From Escherichia coli (lineage in GTDB: Bacteria > Pseudomonadota > Gammaproteobacteria > Enterobacterales > Enterobacteriaceae), in assembly GCF_013315695.1 (NCBI RefSeq), contig NZ_CP054355.1: a DNA stretch of 64,000 nucleotides; one strand, 5' to 3'. The translations under genes and the position numbers were made by a program. Under the pieces are notes generated by a model, which saw nothing but the letters and a program-made list of their open reading frames with translations, was not told where the DNA came from and searched no databases. The first letter of the stretch is position 1. Each line of letters begins with the position of its first letter. Shown piece by piece: positions 1 to 46,330 of the stretch.

Positions 1-978
1 GTGGATAAGTCGTCCGGTGAGCTGGTGACACTGACACCAAACAATAACAACACCGTACAACCTGTGGCGCTGATGCGTCTGGGCGTCTTTGTACCTACCC
101 TTAAGTCACTGAAGAACAGTAAAAAAAATACACTGTCACGCACCGATGCCACGGAAGAACTGACGCGTCTTTCTCTGGCCCGTGCAGAAGGATTCGATAA
201 GGTTGAGATCACCGGCCCCCGGCTGGATATGGATAACGATTTCAAGACCTGGGTGGGGATCATTCATTCCTTTGCCCGCCATAACGTGATTGGTGACAAA
301 GTTGAACTGCCTTTTGTCGAGTTTGCAAAACTGTGTGGTATACCCTCAAGCCAGTCATCACGCAGGCTGCGTGAGCGCATCAGCCCTTCCCTGAAACGCA
401 TTGCCGGTACCGTGATCTCCTTTTCCCGCACCGATGAGAAGCACACCCGGGAATACATCACCCATCTGGTACAGTCAGCCTACTACGATACTGAACGGGA
501 TATTGTTCAGTTACAGGCTGATCCCCGCCTTTTTGAACTGTACCAGTTTGACAGAAAGGTCCTTCTTCAGCTTAAGGCGATTAATGCCCTGAAGCGACGG
601 GAGTCCGCCCAGGCACTTTACACCTTTATAGAGAGCCTGCCCCGGGATCCGGCACCGATATCGCTGGCGCGGCTGCGTGCACGCCTCAATCTGAAGTCTC
701 CTGTATTTTCCCAGAACCAGACGGTCAGACGGGCAATGGAGCAGTTGCGCGAGATTGGATATCTTGATTACACGGAGATCCAGCGGGGGCGGACAAAATT
801 CTTCTGTATTCACTACCGGCGTCCCCGGTTAAAAGCGCCGAATGATGAGAGTAAGGAAAATCAGTTGCCACCTTCACCTGCGGAAAAAATCAGTCCGGAG
901 ATGGCGGAGAAGCTTGCCCTGCTTGAAAAACTGGGCATCACGCTGGATGACCTGGAAAAACTCTTCAAATCCCGCTGA
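1..978 (+). CDS. repA: RepFIB-type plasmid replication initiator RepA (325 aa)
   Basis: ORF track 1..978 (GTG start at window edge); sequence recognised as IncFIB RepA ([17 protein letters not shown]...); iteron-like repeats immediately downstream. Confidence 0.85.
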
Positions 979-3889: not shown

Positions 3890-4141
<252 letters not shown>

Positions 4142-4657
4142 TTATTTCCGAACCTCGCCCTTGCCTGCGTAACCATCCGTCGCCCCCATCCTGTTTTCAG
4201 ACTGCGGAAAAAGGCAAGTTTTTATCCCCCCACAGAGATTCAATCATATATCGCGTGTTTTGGAAGTGACAGTTCTTATTCCTGAGAATACTGCATGTGC
4301 AACACACTCGGCATCCATCGATACCACTTTTATCTCCAATAGGCAGGATAAAAAACAAGACTGTGAATTAAAGTAATCGGCAAATGAATGAGTTAGAAGA
4401 TACTGAAAATGAATCAAGGACTAACCCCGTAGGGAATGAAAATAATAAAAGAACATCTTGTTTTTATTTTAATGAATGAGCATGTTCTTTTATATTAATA
4501 ACAAAACCTATCATTAAACAAAATGATGAATGACAGAGTTTTCTTTAAAATAGCTTATATTATCTTACAGTAGCTGACATAGTGCAATATAAATTATCAG
4601 CTATGCCATAACGGCTTAGCAGTGTCTAAGCGTAAGAATCAAGACTTCAGTTACAGT

Positions 4658-4873
4658 TTACTCACGGTAGAAATATTTAAGAGCACTAACAATACTGTGT
4701 GTATAGTTTAGTTTTTTTAGGCATAGGCAAAAATAACTAATGGAAACATTGTTCCTTTCACAACTTTCTTGCTTTGAATAACCATCAACCAAATACTCCT
4801 TAAGAGCCATGATGTTTTTTTTACTTCTGATTGGTGATATTTCAATTAAAAGTGAAAAGTGTTCTCCATTCAT
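4658..4873 (-). CDS. PapB/FaeB/PefB-family fimbrial operon regulator (orphan)
   Basis: ORF 4658..4930; segment EHFSLLIEISPIRSKKNIMALKEYLVDGYSKQESCERNNVSISYF parallels PapB (HFFLLIGISSIHSDRVILAMKDYLVGGHSRKEVCEKYQMNNGYF); likely start at internal Met. Confidence 0.55.
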   Translation of the reverse strand: MNGEHFSLLIEISPIRSKKNIMALKEYLVDGYSKQESCERNNVSISYFCLCLKKLNYTHSIVSALKYFYRE

Positions 4874-38651: not shown

Positions 38652-39207
38652 GACTTCCCCGGCATGTCAACGCCGGTGTTTACGGTTTCTGTCTGCACTA
38701 TAGTAAAAAAATAAAGGGGAGAGACTGCGGTACTATAAACGATCATGATGAATCGTCATCGATTCGGACCCTGATGAAAGACGCTCGTGAGGCTCTAGTT
38801 CGTTAGTCGGGTACACTTGCCCTGTACAATAAGCAGATATACCTCACGGGGTCTAACCCTTTATCATCAACGAGTTGCAGATCAGATGGTCATACAGCTT
38901 TGTACTTTAGCTGGCTGAGTACAACCTGAAATCATCACCGTAATGCAATGATGCCCAGCACAGTCTTGCATTTTTGGCAGCGATGGCAACAACAGCGCGC
39001 CAGTATCCTCTGCGTTCGACCAGTGAGCAGACCCAACGACTGAATAAATCAGTCCTTTTCTCCGCCCCGATCAGTACCGAGCGGGCACCCTGAACCAGAA
39101 GTGTTCTCAGATACGAATCGCCAGCTTTCGTTATCCTGCCAAGCTTCGACTTTCCGCCGCTGCTGTACTGCGATGGTGTCAGTCCCAGCCAGGCTGCCAG
39201 CTGGGGC
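38652..39207 (-). mobile_element. IS110/IS1111-family element fragment (3' part, IS5075/IS4321-like), truncated by IS26
   Basis: C-terminal transposase segment ...ANFATVPQLAAWLGLTPSQYSSGGKSKLGRITKAGDSYLRTLLVQGARSV...; adjacent to a Tn3-family IR, the usual target of this IS group. Confidence 0.45.
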
Positions 39208-39571
39208 ACTGTTGCAAAGTTAGCGATGAGGCAGCCTTTTGTCTTATTCAAAGGCCTTACATTTCAAAAACTCTGCTTACCAGGCGCATTTCGCCCAGGG
39301 GATCACCATAATAAAATGCTGAGGCCTGGCCTTTGCGTAGTGCACGCATCACCTCAATACCTTTGATGGTGGCGTAAGCCGTCTTCATGGATTTAAATCC
39401 CAGCGTGGCGCCGATTATCCGTTTCAGTTTGCCATGATCGCATTCAATCACGTTGTTCCGGTACTTAATCTGTCGGTGTTCAACGTCAGACGGGCACCGG
39501 CCTTCGCGTTTGAGCAGAGCAAGCGCGCGACCATAGGCGGGCGCTTTATCCGTGTTGATGAATCGCGGGAT
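39208..39571 (-). mobile_element. IS26 fragment (right end with 3' part of transposase)
   Basis: IR ggcactgttgcaaa at 39208; reading frame gives ...QIPRFINTDKAPAYGRALALLKREGRCPSDVEHRQIKYRNNVIECDHGKLKR...RLVSRVFEM, identical in pattern to IS26 Tnp C-terminus. Confidence 0.8.
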
Positions 39572-39606
39572 CTGGGCTCCGTTTGGGAAACGGAAAATAT
39601 TGTACG

Positions 39607-42594
39607 TTAAGGCTGTTTTTTGTACTGACTGACATCAACTGCTCGCAAAGGACGATACTTCCCTTCAGCCAGCTTCTTATTGTTTTTCCAGATATAGTCC
39701 CCTGTCAGATTAATGTGCTCCCAGCCCAGCGGAGACAAATGTGACAACAATTGCTCATTAATATGTAGCCCTTTCTTTTTCAGCAGGTTAATGGCGTTTT
39801 CTATATATACGGTATTCCACAAAGTGATTGCGGCAGTGAGCAGCGTAAGCCCACTGGCGCGGTAACTCTGGTTTTCAATACCACGATCCCTTATTTCTCC
39901 CAGACGATGCATGAAGACAGCTCTGGCAAGGGCATTCCGGGCTTCCCCTTTGTTCAGACCTGCCTGAACCCTACGACGAAGCGCCGGATCGCGGAACCAG
40001 TCCAGCATGAACAGTGTTCGCTCAATACGACCAATTTCTCTTAACGCCTTAGCAAGGCCATTCTGTTTCGGATAACTGGTCAATTTTTTCAGCATCAGAG
40101 AAGCGGTCACTGTTCCCTGTTTTATTGAGGTCGCCAGTCTCAGAATTTCATTCCAGTGTATTTTTATCTCTTTGATATTCAGGGGGGTTGTGGAGATAAT
40201 TGACTGTAGAGCAGGATAGTTATCAGCTTTACCTTGAATAAACAAACGTTTGTCATGCAGATCCCGGATCCTTGGGGCAAAAGCGAATCCCAGCAGATGC
40301 ATTAGTGCAAAAACATGCTCCGTGAAACCTGCTGTATCGGTGTAATGTTCCGTTATATCAAGGTCACTTTCGTGATACAGAAGACCATCAAGTACGTGGG
40401 TGGAATCACGAACACGACTGATTACTTTGGTATAAAACGGACTATATTGATCTGAGATATGCGTATAAAACTGCACCCCAGGTTCCTGACCGTACTTCAA
40501 ATTAACCTGACCGGCATAGCGCCCATGACTGCCAACCCTAAAATTCTGGCCGTCAGAGGATGAGGTGGAACCGTCTCCCCATAATGCCGCCAGCGGTCGT
40601 GACTTCTGGGCATTAACCAGTTCTGCCAGTGCAGCAGAGTACGTTTCATCACGGATGTACCATGCTTGTATGTTTTCCAGCGAAGCTCGTGTGGTTCCCG
40701 GACAGGACTCTGCCATTTTTTCCAACCCTAGATTGATGCCGTCCGCCAGGATAGTGGTTAGTAGTAAACGATTATCCTGAGGACGGATTAGCGGATTCTT
40801 AAGATGAGTAAAATGTCGCGAGAAGGCAGTCCATCGCTCGACTTCATCAAGTATCTCTGTAATTTTGGGGTGCGGTAGCATGTTGTAAATCAGGTCGGCC
40901 AGGGGAGAGACTGTTGAAGGAACGCTGTTATCCAGTGGGGTGATCTTTACACCTTTATCTGAAATATCCACATCAGGAAGCTCCCCTGCGACAGCCATTG
41001 CGTTAACTTCCTCCAGACGGGAGGCCAGTAGAGTCAGTCTGGCATTAAGATAAGCCCCGCATTCTGTGCCAACAGGTAAATTTAATAGGTTATTATTTAA
41101 TAACTTTTCGAAATCATCGTTAGGCATAAGATAATCATCAAAGTTTTTGTAGCGCCGGGAGCCCCTGACCCAGATATCACCCGCCCGCAGCGCCCCCTTT
41201 AGCTCATTCATTGCGCAAATTTCATAGTATTGTCGGTCAATGCCTGAGGGGGTGACCACCATCTTTCTCCAGCTCTCAGGAATGAAATCCAGTGGTGCCG
41301 ATGCAGGAACCTTTCGTAGCTGTTTACGGTACATATCACGAATAGTTTCAAGGGCATCATTAAGCGGCAACGCTGCCGAAGTGGCTCTCAGTTGCAGGGC
41401 CGATAGAAAACGAAAAGAATATTTGCGCAATGTACTGAATTTTTCGGTAATAAGATGAAGCGGCTCAAAATTATCCTTACGTGCAAGAAGCTTTGTTTCC
41501 TCCAGACTGGCGACAAAATCGTCCCACGGTAACACTCGTTCAATAGCAGACAGAGGATCTTCGCCTGCATTGCGTGCATCCAGGATAGCCTGGCCAACAG
41601 AAACATACTGACGTAACTTTTGCTGTATCAACTTGCCCGTTTTCTGAAGACGCTCAGCCTGCTGATGTTTTGCCCGACTGAACATGCTGCCTAGAATACG
41701 TTCATGCAGTTCTATAATTTCATCAATGATTGTGGCTCTGGCCTCAGTCAGTACACAGACCATCGTTGCGTATCGACGAGCAGGGGAAAAATCAGCCAGA
41801 TCGCGACTGCTCATTTTGCGGCCCTCACGCGCGAGTTTCAGCAATCGGTTCTGGTGAACGGTTCTCTCCACTCCTTCCGGCAGCGCCAGAGCTTCAATAG
41901 CGTTAAGGCGGTCAATGTGTTGCAGGACATTCTTTCCATTGATTTTCCCTGGAGGTTGAAGCAGCCACGTCAAACGGGATATTTGTTTTTCATTTGTCAC
42001 CAACAGGGCATCAAGCGCAGATTTATGCGTGATATCAAGGTGCGCATTCAGCGTTGTATACACCGTTTTATCACCCAGTGTCATTGCTTCTGCACAGGTA
42101 CGTTCCAGAACATCAATGCCTGGAATAATAATTCGCTGTTGATGCAGGTACTTTAGTAACTCCTCTGCGATAAGTATGCCTCTGTCCGTTCTGGTAGACA
42201 GAGGGAGCAGATGCCGGATACATTCTTTCTGAAGTGCACCGTTAAAGGCTTTCAGTTCAAGATATCGATAAAGTTCCCTCATATGCTCACGTCTGGTGGT
42301 ATCACGACCGGAAACGTATTCCTGCCAAAGTTCTGCTGATAACTTAAGTCGAGCGCCAATGGTTTTTAGCAATTTTGCGGGTGGGGATGATTTTTTATCC
42401 GGGGCAAACCCAATACTTTTCAGATAACAGAGAAGAACGGCAAAACCAAACCGGCTGGCAGGTTTACGGTGAGCATTGATAATTGCCAGATCCTGCTCAC
42501 TGAAATACGTCATTCGAGTCAGTGTTAACTCATCGTCTGGCAATGCCAGTAATGATTCTCTTTCCGATAGAGAAAGAATCTGCCTCCTTGCCAT
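39607..42594 (-). CDS. tnpA: Tn3-family transposase TnpA
   Basis: 995 aa; C-terminal DDE region typical of Tn3 family; ends inside IR. Confidence 0.9.
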   Translation of the reverse strand: MARRQILSLSERESLLALPDDELTLTRMTYFSEQDLAIINAHRKPASRFGFAVLLCYLKSIGFAPDKKSSPPAKLLKTIGARLKLSAELWQEYVSGRDTTRREHMRELYRYLELKAFNGALQKECIRHLLPLSTRTDRGILIAEELLKYLHQQRIIIPGIDVLERTCAEAMTLGDKTVYTTLNAHLDITHKSALDALLVTNEKQISRLTWLLQPPGKINGKNVLQHIDRLNAIEALALPEGVERTVHQNRLLKLAREGRKMSSRDLADFSPARRYATMVCVLTEARATIIDEIIELHERILGSMFSRAKHQQAERLQKTGKLIQQKLRQYVSVGQAILDARNAGEDPLSAIERVLPWDDFVASLEETKLLARKDNFEPLHLITEKFSTLRKYSFRFLSALQLRATSAALPLNDALETIRDMYRKQLRKVPASAPLDFIPESWRKMVVTPSGIDRQYYEICAMNELKGALRAGDIWVRGSRRYKNFDDYLMPNDDFEKLLNNNLLNLPVGTECGAYLNARLTLLASRLEEVNAMAVAGELPDVDISDKGVKITPLDNSVPSTVSPLADLIYNMLPHPKITEILDEVERWTAFSRHFTHLKNPLIRPQDNRLLLTTILADGINLGLEKMAESCPGTTRASLENIQAWYIRDETYSAALAELVNAQKSRPLAALWGDGSTSSSDGQNFRVGSHGRYAGQVNLKYGQEPGVQFYTHISDQYSPFYTKVISRVRDSTHVLDGLLYHESDLDITEHYTDTAGFTEHVFALMHLLGFAFAPRIRDLHDKRLFIQGKADNYPALQSIISTTPLNIKEIKIHWNEILRLATSIKQGTVTASLMLKKLTSYPKQNGLAKALREIGRIERTLFMLDWFRDPALRRRVQAGLNKGEARNALARAVFMHRLGEIRDRGIENQSYRASGLTLLTAAITLWNTVYIENAINLLKKKGLHINEQLLSHLSPLGWEHINLTGDYIWKNNKKLAEGKYRPLRAVDVSQYKKQP

Positions 42595-42760
42595 ATAGTT
42601 ATCCTTGTTAATTATTTAGTACGTTATTTTTGATGAAAAGGTTATTGCATAAGGGTACACCCTGATGCGAGATATAAAATGTGACCTCATACAAATAATG
42701 ACATAACCTATATGCGATAGAATATATGCAACAACCTAAATGCGACAATGCGGTGAAAAA
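42595..42760. promoter_or_regulatory. Probable res site and divergent promoters between tnpA and tnpR
   Basis: Position only, by analogy with Tn3-family organisation. Confidence 0.35.
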
Positions 42761-43402
42761 ATGTTCATCAGAGCTTATTTAAGGGCGTCAACAGAAGATC
42801 AGTTTGCAGATCGAGCAAAAGAGATGCTGGAACAGTTCGTCCAAGAACGGGGGCATAAAATTGCCAGTTATTATCGGGAGAACATAAGCGGTACAAAACT
42901 TGACCGTCCGGAACTGAAACGCTTACTGATGGACAGTCACCGTAATGATATTTTGCTGGTCGAGCAGATAGACCGCCTGACCCGACTGAGTAACAGCGAC
43001 TGGATAACGCTGAAAAAGCAGATAGAACAACACGAACTGCGGATTGTCAGTCTGGATGTTCCAACATCATGGCAAGCCCTGTCAGATAAAGATCCTTCAC
43101 AATCAGATCCGATTACCCGCGCAGTGATAACTGCAATAAATAATATGCTTATAGACCTGATGGCCGCGATGTCGCATAAGGACTGGCTGAGTCGTCGCCA
43201 ACGCCAAAAACAGGGAATTGAACGAGCTCATACGTTGGGTAAATACCGGGGAAAACAGGCCGATCAGGAACGTCATCAGAAAGTGTTGTACTACAGACAA
43301 GTAAAAAAACTCAGCATTAGAGAAACAGCAGATGCAACGGGCTACAGCACTTCGCAGGTTTGTCGCATTCAGGCTCTCTATAAAGAGGTTAAACCTGATT
43401 AA
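42761..43402 (+). CDS. tnpR: Serine recombinase / resolvase TnpR
   Basis: ORF 42740..43402, likely start MFIRAYLRAS; serine recombinase N-terminal catalytic pattern and C-terminal HTH. Confidence 0.85.
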   Translation: MFIRAYLRASTEDQFADRAKEMLEQFVQERGHKIASYYRENISGTKLDRPELKRLLMDSHRNDILLVEQIDRLTRLSNSDWITLKKQIEQHELRIVSLDVPTSWQALSDKDPSQSDPITRAVITAINNMLIDLMAAMSHKDWLSRRQRQKQGIERAHTLGKYRGKQADQERHQKVLYYRQVKKLSIRETADATGYSTSQVCRIQALYKEVKPD

Positions 43403-43450
43403 AAAACAGCCTTAACGTACAATATTTTCCGTTTCCCAAACGGAGCCCTG

Positions 43451-43845
43451 CTAGCCTTTTCGTAATCATGCCATTGGAGATCATCTGGATTGATGTTAGG
43501 CATGACGTCTTGGCTGTAAAGCAAAAAATCAAGTGAGTCATCCATGATCTTCTCAAAACGCTTACTGCGGTTGTTTCTGTCACTAATAGAGCCCGCCTGA
43601 TACCACCTTTCCGACAACTGCCGATATCGAAGGAAGTGCTCATCCTCTTTCAGTTGATGAAACTGGTTCCTGATTTGTGCATCAAGCCGAATTGCCAGAC
43701 CAGTAAAATCAGGTAACACAACCTTATGAGGGGCATTTTTGGGAGAAATCAGAGAAATGAATTCAGAAACCTGCATATCCTTGCTCTGAGGCCCGTAACG
43801 TTTATCAGAGCGGCGGGTGCCAATAAAAAAGCTTTCAATCGTCAT
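43451..43845 (-). CDS. Hypothetical protein (about 130 native codons, 3' end fused into Tn3-family IR)
   Basis: ORF 43399..43845 continues into the IR, so the native C-terminus is probably lost. Confidence 0.3.
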
Positions 43846-43883
43846 GATTTACCATATTAATCAGTATGTTACTCATTTATGTG

Positions 43884-44057
43884 TGTATGAGGTTACATGT
43901 AGTACAGATGTAAAACCGGCGTAAGCCGGTGCGTTCGTCCGAAATAACCAATCCGTTCGTCCAGTTCAATGGCTGCTATCAGGTTCTGCTCCGCAATGTA
44001 TTCACGAATGCGCTTCCTGTCCTGGCTGGCCAGCATGGTCCAGAATATCTCCATCAT
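43884..44057 (-). pseudogene. ParE/RelE-family toxin gene, truncated after about 45 codons
   Basis: Manual translation MMEIFWTMLASQDRKRIREYIAEQNLIAAIELDERIGYFG... then unrelated sequence and stop; ATG overlaps antitoxin stop (ATGA). Confidence 0.45.
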
Positions 44058-44323
44058 TTACCGGCAACCTTCCTGCTCATTTCATCTCGCCATGCTGCAG
44101 CAGAGGATTCGACCATGTCATGGGGAAGTACATCGCCGTGCTCGAGTTGCTGACGTCCTGCCTCAACCTGGTCACGGAACCAGGTATTATGCTGCCGTTC
44201 AACGGTCTGACGCATAAAATCCCGGATTAACTGAGAGCCATTACGGTCCATGCTTTTTGCAGCGGCCATAAAAGCATCCTTCAGTTCAGCGTCGATTCTT
44301 AAACTCATATTAACCTGTGCCAT
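44054..44323 (-). CDS. Ribbon-helix-helix antitoxin (ParD/RelB-like)
   Basis: 89 aa MAQVNMSLRIDAELKDAFMAAAKSMDRNGSQLIRDFMRQTVER...; upstream of and overlapping the toxin fragment. Confidence 0.55.
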   Translation of the reverse strand: MAQVNMSLRIDAELKDAFMAAAKSMDRNGSQLIRDFMRQTVERQHNTWFRDQVEAGRQQLEHGDVLPHDMVESSAAAWRDEMSRKVAGK

Positions 44324-45236
44324 TTATCACCTCGTCATTACTACGTATATACACAGTATATAACGATTCAGACATCGTCACCAGGATATGCCGCGTCAGC
44401 GGCATGGAAGGCGGCACGCTGTGGTTACATGTGATACCGGAGTAAAACCGCCGAAGCCCGGCGTCAGCCGATACTGATTGATAGATTTCACCTTACCCAT
44501 CCCCAGCCCTGCCAGACCATACCCGCTTTCAGCCATGAGAGAGCTTCTGTGCGCGGTCGGAGTGGTCCCGACGAGGGTTTACCCGAAGTCGGGGCGTATC
44601 TCCGCGTTAGCGGGCCGTGAGGGCCGCTTACGAGCGTGTACTGAGAACTTCCAGCGAGAAGACTGACAGCGATGATGATGTAGTTACAACATTCATAATT
44701 AAAAGCGACTCTGTTCCGGCCCTTCGGGCCGGGGCGGGGCCGCTTTTCAGTTATGAGGGAGGGGCTTTGTTGTTTCGGTTCTGCGCTGGACCGGGGTTTT
44801 CCTGGTGGTTGTATTTGAGTGTTGTAACTAAAATGGCTCCGGTCGGGGCCCGCCGCTTGCGGTGGGAGGTGCATATCTGTCTGTCCACAGGACAGGCAAT
44901 GAACAGGTTTTCTTTTTAAATGAATGTAATTAAGTAGTTTAAAGGAGATATAAACAGGTGTTTAAAAGATACATTGCACCCTGTAACGCTGGCGGCTGGC
45001 GCTTTATGAGGTGAACGGTTGTAACCTTATCGGGAAGTCCCTTGCAGTTTAATGTGGATAAGCACAATTACCCGTCTGTGAGGCGTATTTTGTATTAAAA
45101 ACAGGGGGAACCGGATGCACCTGAAGGTGGATGGTGAGGTTATTTTTTGTATGTGGTGCTGATTTTTTGTGCACTGGCGGGCTTCAGGCGTGCGGAAGCC
45201 TCCGGCGCGTGCCGGATTATTCTGAGGAGGTCACTT

Positions 45237-46094
45237 TCAGGGGGAAGCTGTAGCCAGCCGGCTGTAATTGCGGTTACGTGACAGAATCATGCGCTCCTTC
45301 ACACGACGCTCCACTTCGCGTTTTACCGTCTCACCATTAGCAGTAAAGCGCCCTTCCGAGATTTCACGCGTCAGCTGCCGTTTCACCAGGGTGACGATAT
45401 CCTGACGTTCCCTGTTCGCATCACGACGCGCACGGGCACGTTTTATTCCACGGGACTTAAGCTCTGTCTGGTAACTGCGGAAACGCTCACGCACAAAACG
45501 CCAGGCTTTCGCTATTAGTTCATCCATACCCAGGGTATCCAGCCCCTGTTTTTTGCGCTGTCTGTTTTCCCATTCAACACGACTGCGGCGCGCAGCTGCC
45601 ACTGCATCCTCAGACACATCAAGGGCAGCAAACAGAGCCGGTGTGAACGTGATATCGGTCGGAATGTAGCACCCGATAAGCGGGTCATATTCCGTCTGGT
45701 AGGTAATCAACCCCAGCTCTGACAGGAACGTCAGGGCACGGGTGGCACGAGTGATGGAGAGTTTTCCTGCACCGGACTCTGTCGCCAGTCCGCACTCAAT
45801 GGCCAGCGTGGTGATGGAGCACTGGACGCGGTTGGCCAGCGGGTCATAGTGGAAACACAGCCCCTGCAGGAGCGCATCAATAGCCCGTCGACGCAGCACC
45901 GGTGGCATGCGTCGACGCAGACCACGCGAACGGGCATGCGCCACATGAATGGCGAAATCAAAACGGGAGGTGAAGCCCACCGCCTTTTCCATCAGTTTTT
46001 CGCAGAACTTCAGCGTTCCGGCACCTTTACGGGGTGTAAACACCGGATTCGGGTTCTTTACCTGGCGGTAATACGTTTGGTGAAGATCAGTCAC
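45237..46094 (-). CDS. repA1: IncFII (RepFIIA) replication initiator RepA1
   Basis: ORF 45237..46106; ...[64 protein letters not shown]... matches R100/R1 RepA1. Confidence 0.9.
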
Positions 46095-46231
46095 ACCATC
46101 CTGCACTTATGTTGCACAGAAGGAGTGAGCACAGAAAGAAGTCTTGAACTTTTCCGGGCATATAACTATACTCCCCGCATAGAGCAACAGCTTCTATGCA
46201 GTTTCTTGTTAGCCCCGGTAATCTTTCCTAC

Positions 46232-46330
46232 TCGCCAAAGTTGAAGAAGATTATCGGGGTTTTCGCTTTTCTGGCTCCTGTAAATCCACATCAGAACCAG
46301 TTCCCTGCCACCTTACGGCGTGGCCAGCCA
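46232..46330 (+). ncRNA. copA: CopA antisense RNA region of the IncFII replicon (approximate)
   Basis: Leader sequence gttgaagaagattatcggggttttcgcttttctggctcctgtaaatccacatcagaaccagttccctgccaccttacggcgtggccagccac recognised as the CopA/CopT target region; boundaries and strand inferred. Confidence 0.4.

What the first reader, a model, noticed from the sequence alone, without database searches (positions are those of the whole stretch)
39572..43450. Minimal Tn3-family element with intact identical IRs and only tnpA/tnpR
The element is about 3.9 kb with perfect 38-bp inverted repeats and no passenger genes, so it is potentially still mobile. It is flanked on one side by an IS26 fragment and on the other by a truncated hypothetical gene and a damaged toxin gene, consistent with insertion into a toxin-antitoxin region.
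Basis: seen in the sequence. Interest (0 to 1): 0.35.

Follow-up and report, generated by a model that had tools for sequence, protein, structure and literature searches.

The report
Cryptic Tn3-family transposon, misplaced flanks
This is an ordinary but intact and evidently still-spreading 3.9-kb "cargo-free" Tn3-family transposon on an E. coli IncF virulence plasmid. This copy is not a simple insertion: it joins half of an IS26 to half of an unrelated gene.

Summary
Window 39574-43448 (3875 bp) is a Tn3-family element with perfect terminal inverted repeats: the canonical 38 bp, with complementarity running to 48 bp. It has an uninterrupted 995-aa TnpA with the DDE triad, a divergent 213-aa serine resolvase, a res-like intergenic region, and no cargo.

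It is very likely mobile. Thirteen other copies, 2-4 nt different from this one, lie at 13 different E. coli chromosomal and plasmid sites. Ten of them carry clean 5-bp, AT-rich target duplications.

The window copy has no target duplication (GATCT vs TGCTA). Its tnpA-proximal end abuts an internal point of IS26. Its tnpR-proximal end cuts a 307-aa hypothetical gene beside a yacA/truncated-yacB module. That toxin damage predates the element. Both ends were therefore joined to different targets, by intramolecular transposition with deletion, a cointegrate, or recombination between two copies.

The element is a mosaic. TnpA and the IRs are of a type found in E. albertii. A 0.7-kb res/tnpR patch is of TnEc1 type. 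TnEc1, the closest named element, has 76% TnpA identity, so this is an unnamed member of a well-known kind. Interest is low.

The parts
39574..43448 (.). Complete cargo-free Tn3-family transposon, 3875 bp
   Evidence: Perfect terminal IRs. Copies of identical length at 13 other sites.
39574..39621 (+). tnpA-proximal terminal inverted repeat: canonical 38 bp (39574-39611, ending ACGTTAAG) plus 10 further complementary bp. The tnpA stop codon lies inside it.
43401..43448 (-). tnpR-proximal terminal inverted repeat: 38-bp core at 43411-43448, identical to the other end
39607..42594 (-). tnpA, 995-aa DDE transposase. It is intact, with D681/D753/E884 aligned to the Tn4430 triad D679/D751/E881. Private substitutions A625E and A839T.
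42595..42760 (.). tnpA-tnpR intergenic region, the inferred res site. It holds a 32-bp imperfect dyad at 42642-42673 (11/15 matches, centre AC at 42657-58) and four ATGNNA motifs at 14-bp spacing from 42698 to 42740, with further copies at 42665 and 42679.
   Evidence: The position between divergent tnpA and tnpR matches Tn3 (PMC7157771). Binding by TnpR is inferred, not shown.
42761..43402 (+). tnpR, 213-aa serine recombinase/resolvase (R8, S10, D71-R72-L73-T74-R75, C-terminal HTH)
42658..43362 (.). TnEc1-type patch inside the element, covering most of res and tnpR. The rest of the element is of the type found in E. albertii.
   Evidence: Informative sites: 89 TnEc1-type vs 11 here. Elsewhere the counts are 866 vs 34 and 19 vs 0 in favour of the E. 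albertii type.
39205..39573 (-). IS26 fragment, 369 of 820 bp, with one IR and the 3' part of tnp26. It is cut at an internal point exactly at the element end.
43449..43845 (-). Hypothetical gene with no Pfam match, 307 aa in intact plasmids, truncated to 132 N-terminal codons. The ORF runs on into the IR as far as 43399.
43893..44057 (-). yacB (ParE/RelE-type toxin) remnant. Homology to intact yacB ends at 43943. The damage predates the element.
44054..44323 (-). yacA antitoxin, intact, 89 aa

Best explanation
This is a cargo-free (cryptic) Tn3-family replicative transposon. The following mechanism is inferred from the family. TnpA binds the two identical 38-bp ends, nicks their 3' ends and joins them to a target cut with a 5-bp stagger. 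Replication then yields a cointegrate. The serine resolvase TnpR resolves it at the res site between the divergent tnpA and tnpR genes. The lineage is recently active in E. coli. The window copy has been through a second event: its two ends are joined to two unrelated targets, an internal point of IS26 and a hypothetical gene next to yacA. That is the signature of intramolecular replicative transposition with deletion of the intervening DNA. The same signature is left by a cointegrate, or by recombination between two copies, that fuses a pUTI89-like virulence module to a different IncFII/tra backbone. The element is also a recombinant. Its tnpA and IRs are of the type found in E. albertii, and about 0.7 kb of res and tnpR is of TnEc1 type.
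For: Anatomy: perfect IRs. TnpA aligns end to end with the Tn3-family model and with Tn4430 TnpA (E 1e-202), with the DDE triad conserved. TnpR has a Resolvase domain and an HTH, with S10 and the DRLTR motif. Activity: all 13 other copies are 3875 bp and differ from the window copy by 2-4 nt. Ten of them have 5-bp duplications: TATAC, AATAC, TAATA, TGGGA, TTTTT, ATTAA, AGTAA, AGGAT, AACAG and TTTAA (80% A+T). They lie in chromosomes and plasmids, sometimes with two or more copies per strain. Rearrangement: the flanks are GATCT and TGCTA, with no duplication. Both junctions sit at the exact terminal nucleotides, so each was made by transposase strand transfer. The left flank is 99.97% identical to the pUTI89-like plasmid RCS93_pI and stops inside IS26. 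The right flank is 100% identical to a different plasmid type (L008) and only 94% identical to the pUTI89-like FII region. Loss of one duplication through intramolecular Tn3-family transposition, and plasmid exchange at the cargo-free Tn5403, are both documented (PMC5142620). Mosaic origin.
Against: No experiment shows that this copy moves. Its TnpA carries two private changes, and A625E falls in the conserved NxGLxKMA stretch. The res subsites are inferred from repeats only. The rest of IS26, the rest of the hypothetical gene and any second copy are absent from the 64-kb window. Deletion, cointegrate and two-copy recombination therefore cannot be told apart. The source record could not be retrieved.
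Confidence: 0.85

Rival explanations
1. This copy is an immobile relic. It is structurally intact but disabled by its private TnpA substitutions, and it persists only as a passenger of the plasmid.
For: A625E and A839T occur only in this copy. All 13 sibling copies have A at both positions. The four more distant relatives have A at 839 and A or T at 625. Two of the window copy's three private nucleotide changes are non-synonymous. This copy has no target duplication.
Against: There are no stops or frameshifts, the DDE triad is intact and the IRs are perfect. This suggests the variant was copied after it acquired both changes. Its ends could also be mobilised in trans by a sibling TnpA.
Confidence: 0.2
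2. IS26, not the Tn3-family element, made the odd junctions, through IS26-mediated deletion or cointegration.
For: IS26 repeatedly truncates this same region to varying extents (pTW14425, Salmonella plasmids, pUTI89-like plasmids). One IS26 insertion lies only 2 bp from the element's right junction.
Against: IS26 acts through its own ends. Here the breakpoint is internal to IS26, at bp 369 of 820, and coincides exactly with the terminal nucleotide of the element IR. No IS26 sequence lies on the right side.
Confidence: 0.05
3. The cargo-free state is secondary: the element derives from a cargo-carrying relative by deletion of its passenger genes.
For: Relatives with 93-97% identical TnpA carry cargo between the tnpR stop and the IR. 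One has a radical SAM gene (6138 bp, L005) and one has TauE/SafE plus LysR (5234 bp, L012).
Against: The cargo differs between relatives, and in the minimal forms there is no scar between the tnpR stop and the IR. The window element, the E. albertii element and TnEc1 all go straight from the tnpR stop into the IR. Independent cargo gains are the simpler explanation.
Confidence: 0.1

Closest known systems
TnEc1 (Tn3-family, E. coli plasmids; named in NCBI annotation as 'Tn3-like element TnEc1 family transposase')
   Same: The layout is the same: about 3.85 kb, divergent tnpA and tnpR, no cargo, and a 5-bp duplication (ATACA in L011). TnpR is 97.7% identical. Window 42658-43362 is 92-99% identical in DNA. 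The IRs end in the same TTGTACGTTAAG.
   Different: TnpA is only 75.8% identical, and DNA identity across tnpA is 52-83%. The IRs differ at 8 of 38 positions, and TnEc1 starts GGGG rather than GGGC. NCBI does not give this element's transposase the TnEc1 name.
Unnamed 3875-bp element of E. albertii plasmid pESA134_2 and its cargo-bearing relatives (LT985265, K. michiganensis pJNQH491-2)
   Same: TnpA is 93-98% identical. The 38-bp IRs are identical or differ at one position. The gene order is the same.
   Different: Their res/tnpR segment is of a different type, 79-91% identical there. Two of them carry passenger genes.
Tn5403 and Tn1722 (cryptic Tn3-family transposons of Enterobacteriaceae)
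   Same: They share the concept: Tn3-family elements without resistance genes that still reshape plasmids by transposition and homologous exchange (PMC5142620; PMC6140695).
   Different: No sequence comparison was done here. No Tn5403 annotation appeared among the listed TnpA relatives down to about 54% identity. That Tn5403 is a separate lineage is my recollection, not a test.
Tn4430 (solved TnpA structures 7QD4-7QD8)
   Same: TnpA aligns over residues 3-985 with the DDE triad conserved. Tn4430 is also cargo-free.
   Different: Tn4430 uses the tyrosine recombinase TnpI and an irs site, with colinear genes. This element uses a serine resolvase with divergent genes.

Membership tests
Tn3 family of replicative transposons | Large (~1000 aa) TnpA with a Tn3-type DDE domain and a DUF4158 N-terminus | tested here: met
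   PF01526 E 1e-147 over its full length. PF13700 E 1e-42. NF033527 scores 1146 bits against a cut-off of 500.
Tn3 family of replicative transposons | Conserved DDE catalytic triad | tested here: met
   D681, D753 and E884 align with Tn4430 D679, D751 and E881.
Tn3 family of replicative transposons | Terminal inverted repeats of about 38 bp with a GGGG-type outer end and a TAAG inner end | tested here: met
   The 38-bp ends are identical, starting GGGC and ending ACGTTAAG. Complementarity extends to 48 bp.
Tn3 family of replicative transposons | 5-bp target-site duplication | tested here: not met
   This copy has GATCT on one side and TGCTA on the other. The feature is met by 10 of 13 sibling copies. 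The lineage therefore qualifies, and this copy is rearranged.
Tn3 family of replicative transposons | Cointegrate resolution module (site-specific recombinase plus res site) | tested here: inconclusive
   A serine recombinase with catalytic S10 and an HTH is present. A res-like dyad and repeats are present, but binding and resolution were not tested.
Tn3 family of replicative transposons | Replicative transposition through a cointegrate, and target immunity | not testable with these tools
   Only indirect support: two or more copies per strain in 2013C-3033, 21319 and GCA_043944085.1.
TnEc1 | TnpA and ends near-identical to the reference element | tested here: not met
   TnpA is 75.8% identical and the IRs differ at 8 of 38 positions. 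Only TnpR (97.7%) matches.
IS26-bounded pseudo-compound transposon | Two IS26 copies bracketing the segment | tested here: not met
   There is one IS26 end in the whole window and a single 369-bp fragment.
YacAB type II toxin-antitoxin module (context) | Intact toxin and antitoxin genes | tested here: not met
   yacA is intact. yacB keeps about 37 of 92 codons. The same state occurs in plasmids without the element.

The most novel reading that the evidence does not exclude
The element copy is one junction of a plasmid fusion, either a fossil or unresolved cointegrate or a two-copy recombination. The fusion grafted the pUTI89-type iron-uptake/senB virulence module onto a different IncFII/tra backbone. 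A second copy with the same private TnpA allele would carry the reciprocal flanks elsewhere in the source genome. On this reading a cargo-free transposon drives backbone swapping of virulence plasmids.
Probability: 0.3. Interest if true: 0.35.

Novelty: new member of a known kind. Interest (0 to 1): 0.18.

Why it matters
The importance is modest. Cargo-free Tn3-family elements are usually ignored in annotation, yet this one is spreading in E. coli: its exact TnpA is on 167 contigs. It creates portable homology and transposase-made junctions that can delete or fuse plasmid segments. Here the junction sits beside the IncFII replicon of a virulence plasmid. The element also gives a clean natural example of module exchange at or near res between two sibling transposons. 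None of this changes what is known about how the family works.

Tried and rejected
I first assumed that the gene right of the element was the DUF2726 gene and that the FII replicon had been deleted. BLAST against RCS93_pI showed that repA is still present at 45237-46106 and that the flank is a different hypothetical gene. I rejected that reading.

I searched for the source record or an identical junction. None was found in PLSDB, where the best full-length match is 94.8%. None was found in 5426 complete E. coli genomes. Exact-protein look-ups of the window TnpA and of the junction ORF also found nothing.

I searched the window for a second copy, the rest of IS26 and the rest of the hypothetical gene. 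All were absent.

I searched for an ancestor plasmid carrying both flanks with the intervening DNA. I found only IS26-truncated variants, none with the pUTI89-like left side.

A literature search for the IR sequences gave no hits. I could not consult ISfinder or TnCentral, so a registered name cannot be excluded.

IS26 as the author of the junctions was rejected because the breakpoint is internal to IS26.
Full report
**Observation**

The reported feature is real. The repeat finder gives inverted arms at 39574-39621 and 43401-43448, 48 nt and 100% complementary. The canonical 38-bp end, GGGCTCCGTTTGGGAAACGGAAAATATTGTACGTTAAG, occurs exactly twice in the 64-kb window, once on each strand. None is expected by chance. 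Sibling copies of exactly this length with flanking duplications confirm the ends.

**Genes**

- tnpA (39607-42594, minus strand) is an uninterrupted 995-codon ORF.
- It matches the Tn3 DDE domain over its full length (PF01526, E 1e-147) and DUF4158.
- It matches the NCBIfam Tn3-transposase model over positions 2-954 of 954 at 1146 bits.
- It aligns over residues 3-985 with the structurally solved Tn4430 TnpA, E about 1e-202.
- The Tn4430 catalytic triad D679/D751/E881 (PMC9579193) corresponds to D681, D753 and E884 here.
- tnpR runs divergently. NCBI annotation of identical copies starts it at the ATG at 42761, giving 213 aa.
- TnpR has a Resolvase catalytic domain and a C-terminal HTH, R8 and S10, and a DRLTR motif at residues 71-75.
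- TnpR is only distantly similar to the gamma-delta, Tn3 and Bin3 recombinases, with E values from 1e-6 to 5e-4.
- There is no room for a passenger gene. The tnpA stop lies inside one IR, and the tnpR stop abuts the 48-nt complementary arm at the other end.

**Inferred res site**

The 166-bp tnpA-tnpR spacer (42595-42760) sits where Tn3 has res (PMC7157771). It contains a 32-bp imperfect dyad at 42642-42673, with 11 of 15 matches and a centre AC at 42657-58. It also contains ATGNNA motifs, four of them at exact 14-bp spacing from 42698 to 42740. That these bind TnpR is inference.

**Is it mobile?**

Thirteen other copies were recovered, all 3875 bp and 2-4 nt different from the window copy.
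- E. coli 2013C-3033 has one in the chromosome between lsrK and lsrR and one in its plasmid.
- Strain 21319 has one in each of two plasmids.
- Nine further sites came from the exact-protein look-up. A tenth locus returned by that look-up, L021, is the same lsrK/lsrR site.

Ten of the 13 have perfect 5-bp duplications: TATAC, AATAC, TAATA, TGGGA, TTTTT, ATTAA, AGTAA, AGGAT, AACAG and TTTAA. Together these are 80% A+T. This fits the known size of the Tn3-family duplication and, from my own knowledge of the family, its preference for AT-rich targets. The consensus TnpA sequence is recorded on 167 contigs. The lineage is recently and repeatedly active.

The window copy itself differs from all siblings at three positions in tnpA. 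Two of these are non-synonymous. A625E lies in the conserved NxGLxKMA stretch, and the other is A839T. All siblings have A at both positions. The four more distant relatives have A at 839 and A or T at 625. Whether these changes matter is untested. This hints that the source genome has a second copy of the same allele.

**Surroundings**

The window copy has no target duplication. The left flank ends ...GGGATCT and the right flank starts TGCTA....

- Left flank:
  - The sequence is 99.97% identical to the pUTI89-like plasmid RCS93_pI up to an internal point of IS26.
  - Only 369 of the 820 bp of IS26 remain (39205-39573, one IR at 39205-39218).
  - The 24.5 kb to the left is 99.8% identical to the iron-uptake/senB virulence module of plasmids such as pCE10A.
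- Right flank:
  - The sequence from 43449 to 44500 is 100% identical to a different set of IncF plasmids, for example NZ_CP027554.
  - In those plasmids it is part of an intact 307-aa hypothetical gene with no Pfam match.
  - In the window the gene keeps 132 codons. Next come a yacB toxin remnant of about 37 of 92 codons, intact yacA, and then the IncFII oriR/repA/CopA region.
  - The yacB truncation is present in plasmids that lack the element, so the element did not cause it.
  - The pUTI89-like plasmids are only 94% identical across this FII region.

Both junctions fall on the terminal nucleotide of an IR, so each was made by transposase strand transfer, but into two different targets. IS26 cannot have made them, because the break is internal to IS26.

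Three routes lead to this structure:
- intramolecular replicative transposition with deletion, which removes one flanking duplication, as documented for Tn1331 derivatives (PMC5142620);
- a cointegrate that was never cleanly resolved;
- recombination, homologous or by TnpR at res, between two copies in different contexts, comparable to the exchange described at Tn5403.

The window holds no second copy, no remainder of IS26 and no remainder of the hypothetical gene. Neither junction exists in 5426 complete E. coli genomes. These routes therefore cannot be separated here.

**Relatives and classification**

- The closest named element is TnEc1:
  - It has the same cargo-free layout, 3854 bp, with duplication ATACA.
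  - TnpR is 97.7% identical, but TnpA is only 75.8% identical.
  - The IRs differ at 8 of 38 positions.
- An unnamed 3875-bp element in E. albertii has 97.9% identical TnpA and identical 38-bp IRs.
- Two relatives carry cargo between tnpR and the IR. One has a radical SAM gene (6138 bp) and one has TauE/SafE plus LysR (5234 bp).
- TnpA is about 56% identical to the TnAs3 and ISPa38 transposases.

A site-by-site comparison shows that the window element is a mosaic:
- 39574-42638 is E. albertii-type at 866 informative sites against 34;
- 42658-43362 is TnEc1-type at 89 sites against 11;
- 43363-43448 is E. albertii-type again at 19 sites against 0.

The left breakpoint lies between 42647 and 42657, with one conflicting site at 42640. 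It abuts the centre of the 32-bp dyad, so it is compatible with an exchange at res site I. Such exchange is described for other family members (PMC7157771), but it is not proven here. The right breakpoint (43358-43362) needs an ordinary homologous crossover.

**Verdict**

By the usual identity criteria it is a distinct and, as far as I could determine, unnamed member of the Tn3 family. Its sequence is already in public databases under generic annotation. There is strong comparative evidence of current mobility. And this copy marks a transposase-made rearrangement junction rather than a simple insertion. Interest is low, at 0.18.

Noticed in passing
window 13379-14506 and 24751-25878: A 1128-nt inverted pair (99%) of an IS3-family element. 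Each copy has an ALIL frameshift pseudoknot and an rve-domain ORF. The pair brackets about 10.2 kb that includes a TonB-dependent receptor and a ChaN-like haem-binding gene. It could be a composite unit or an inversion substrate.
   Followed up: partly
L009 (pTW14425_76.4k) 1097-1916 and 4002-4821; corresponds to window 43451-43458: IS26 has hit the same hypothetical gene 2 bp from the element's junction. The 8-bp target CTAGCCTT is present in inverted copies at two oppositely oriented IS26 copies, the signature of an IS26 intramolecular inversion. Two unrelated elements hit within 2 bp of each other, by coincidence or because the site is a hot spot.
   Followed up: partly
L005 5167-11304 (LT985265) and L012 1501-6734 (pJNQH491-2): Relatives of the element carry cargo inserted between the tnpR stop and the IR. 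One carries a radical SAM protein gene and the other a TauE/SafE sulfite exporter plus a LysR regulator.
   Followed up: partly
window 43888-43929 and 44420-44461: A 42-nt direct repeat (76% identity) containing a CCGGCG-N-GCCGG hairpin brackets the yacA/truncated-yacB segment. One copy lies about 14 bp from the point where homology to intact yacB ends (43943). It may mark the event that truncated the toxin.
   Followed up: no
window 38907-39251: A fragment of an IS110-family transposase gene runs directly into the IS26 end at 39205. This nested IS debris is also present in pUTI89-like plasmids.
   Followed up: no
window 1-978 and 45237-46268: The window opens inside a Rep3-type initiator gene. 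It also holds an IncFII repA with CopA antisense RNA, so the plasmid is multi-replicon. Rfam also finds the AS-traI, AS-traG and AS-pc02 antisense RNAs in the tra/leading region.
   Followed up: no
L006+L007 (2013C-3033 plasmid), L018, L020: Three other near-identical copies also lack target duplications (CACTA/TAATG, ATAAA/TCTGT, TTCTG/TATCT). Rearrangement at this element is therefore recurrent.
   Followed up: partly
L002/L003 tnpR codon 74: The two copies in strain 21319 carry T74I inside the DRLTR active-site motif of TnpR. Both still have clean 5-bp duplications.
   Followed up: no
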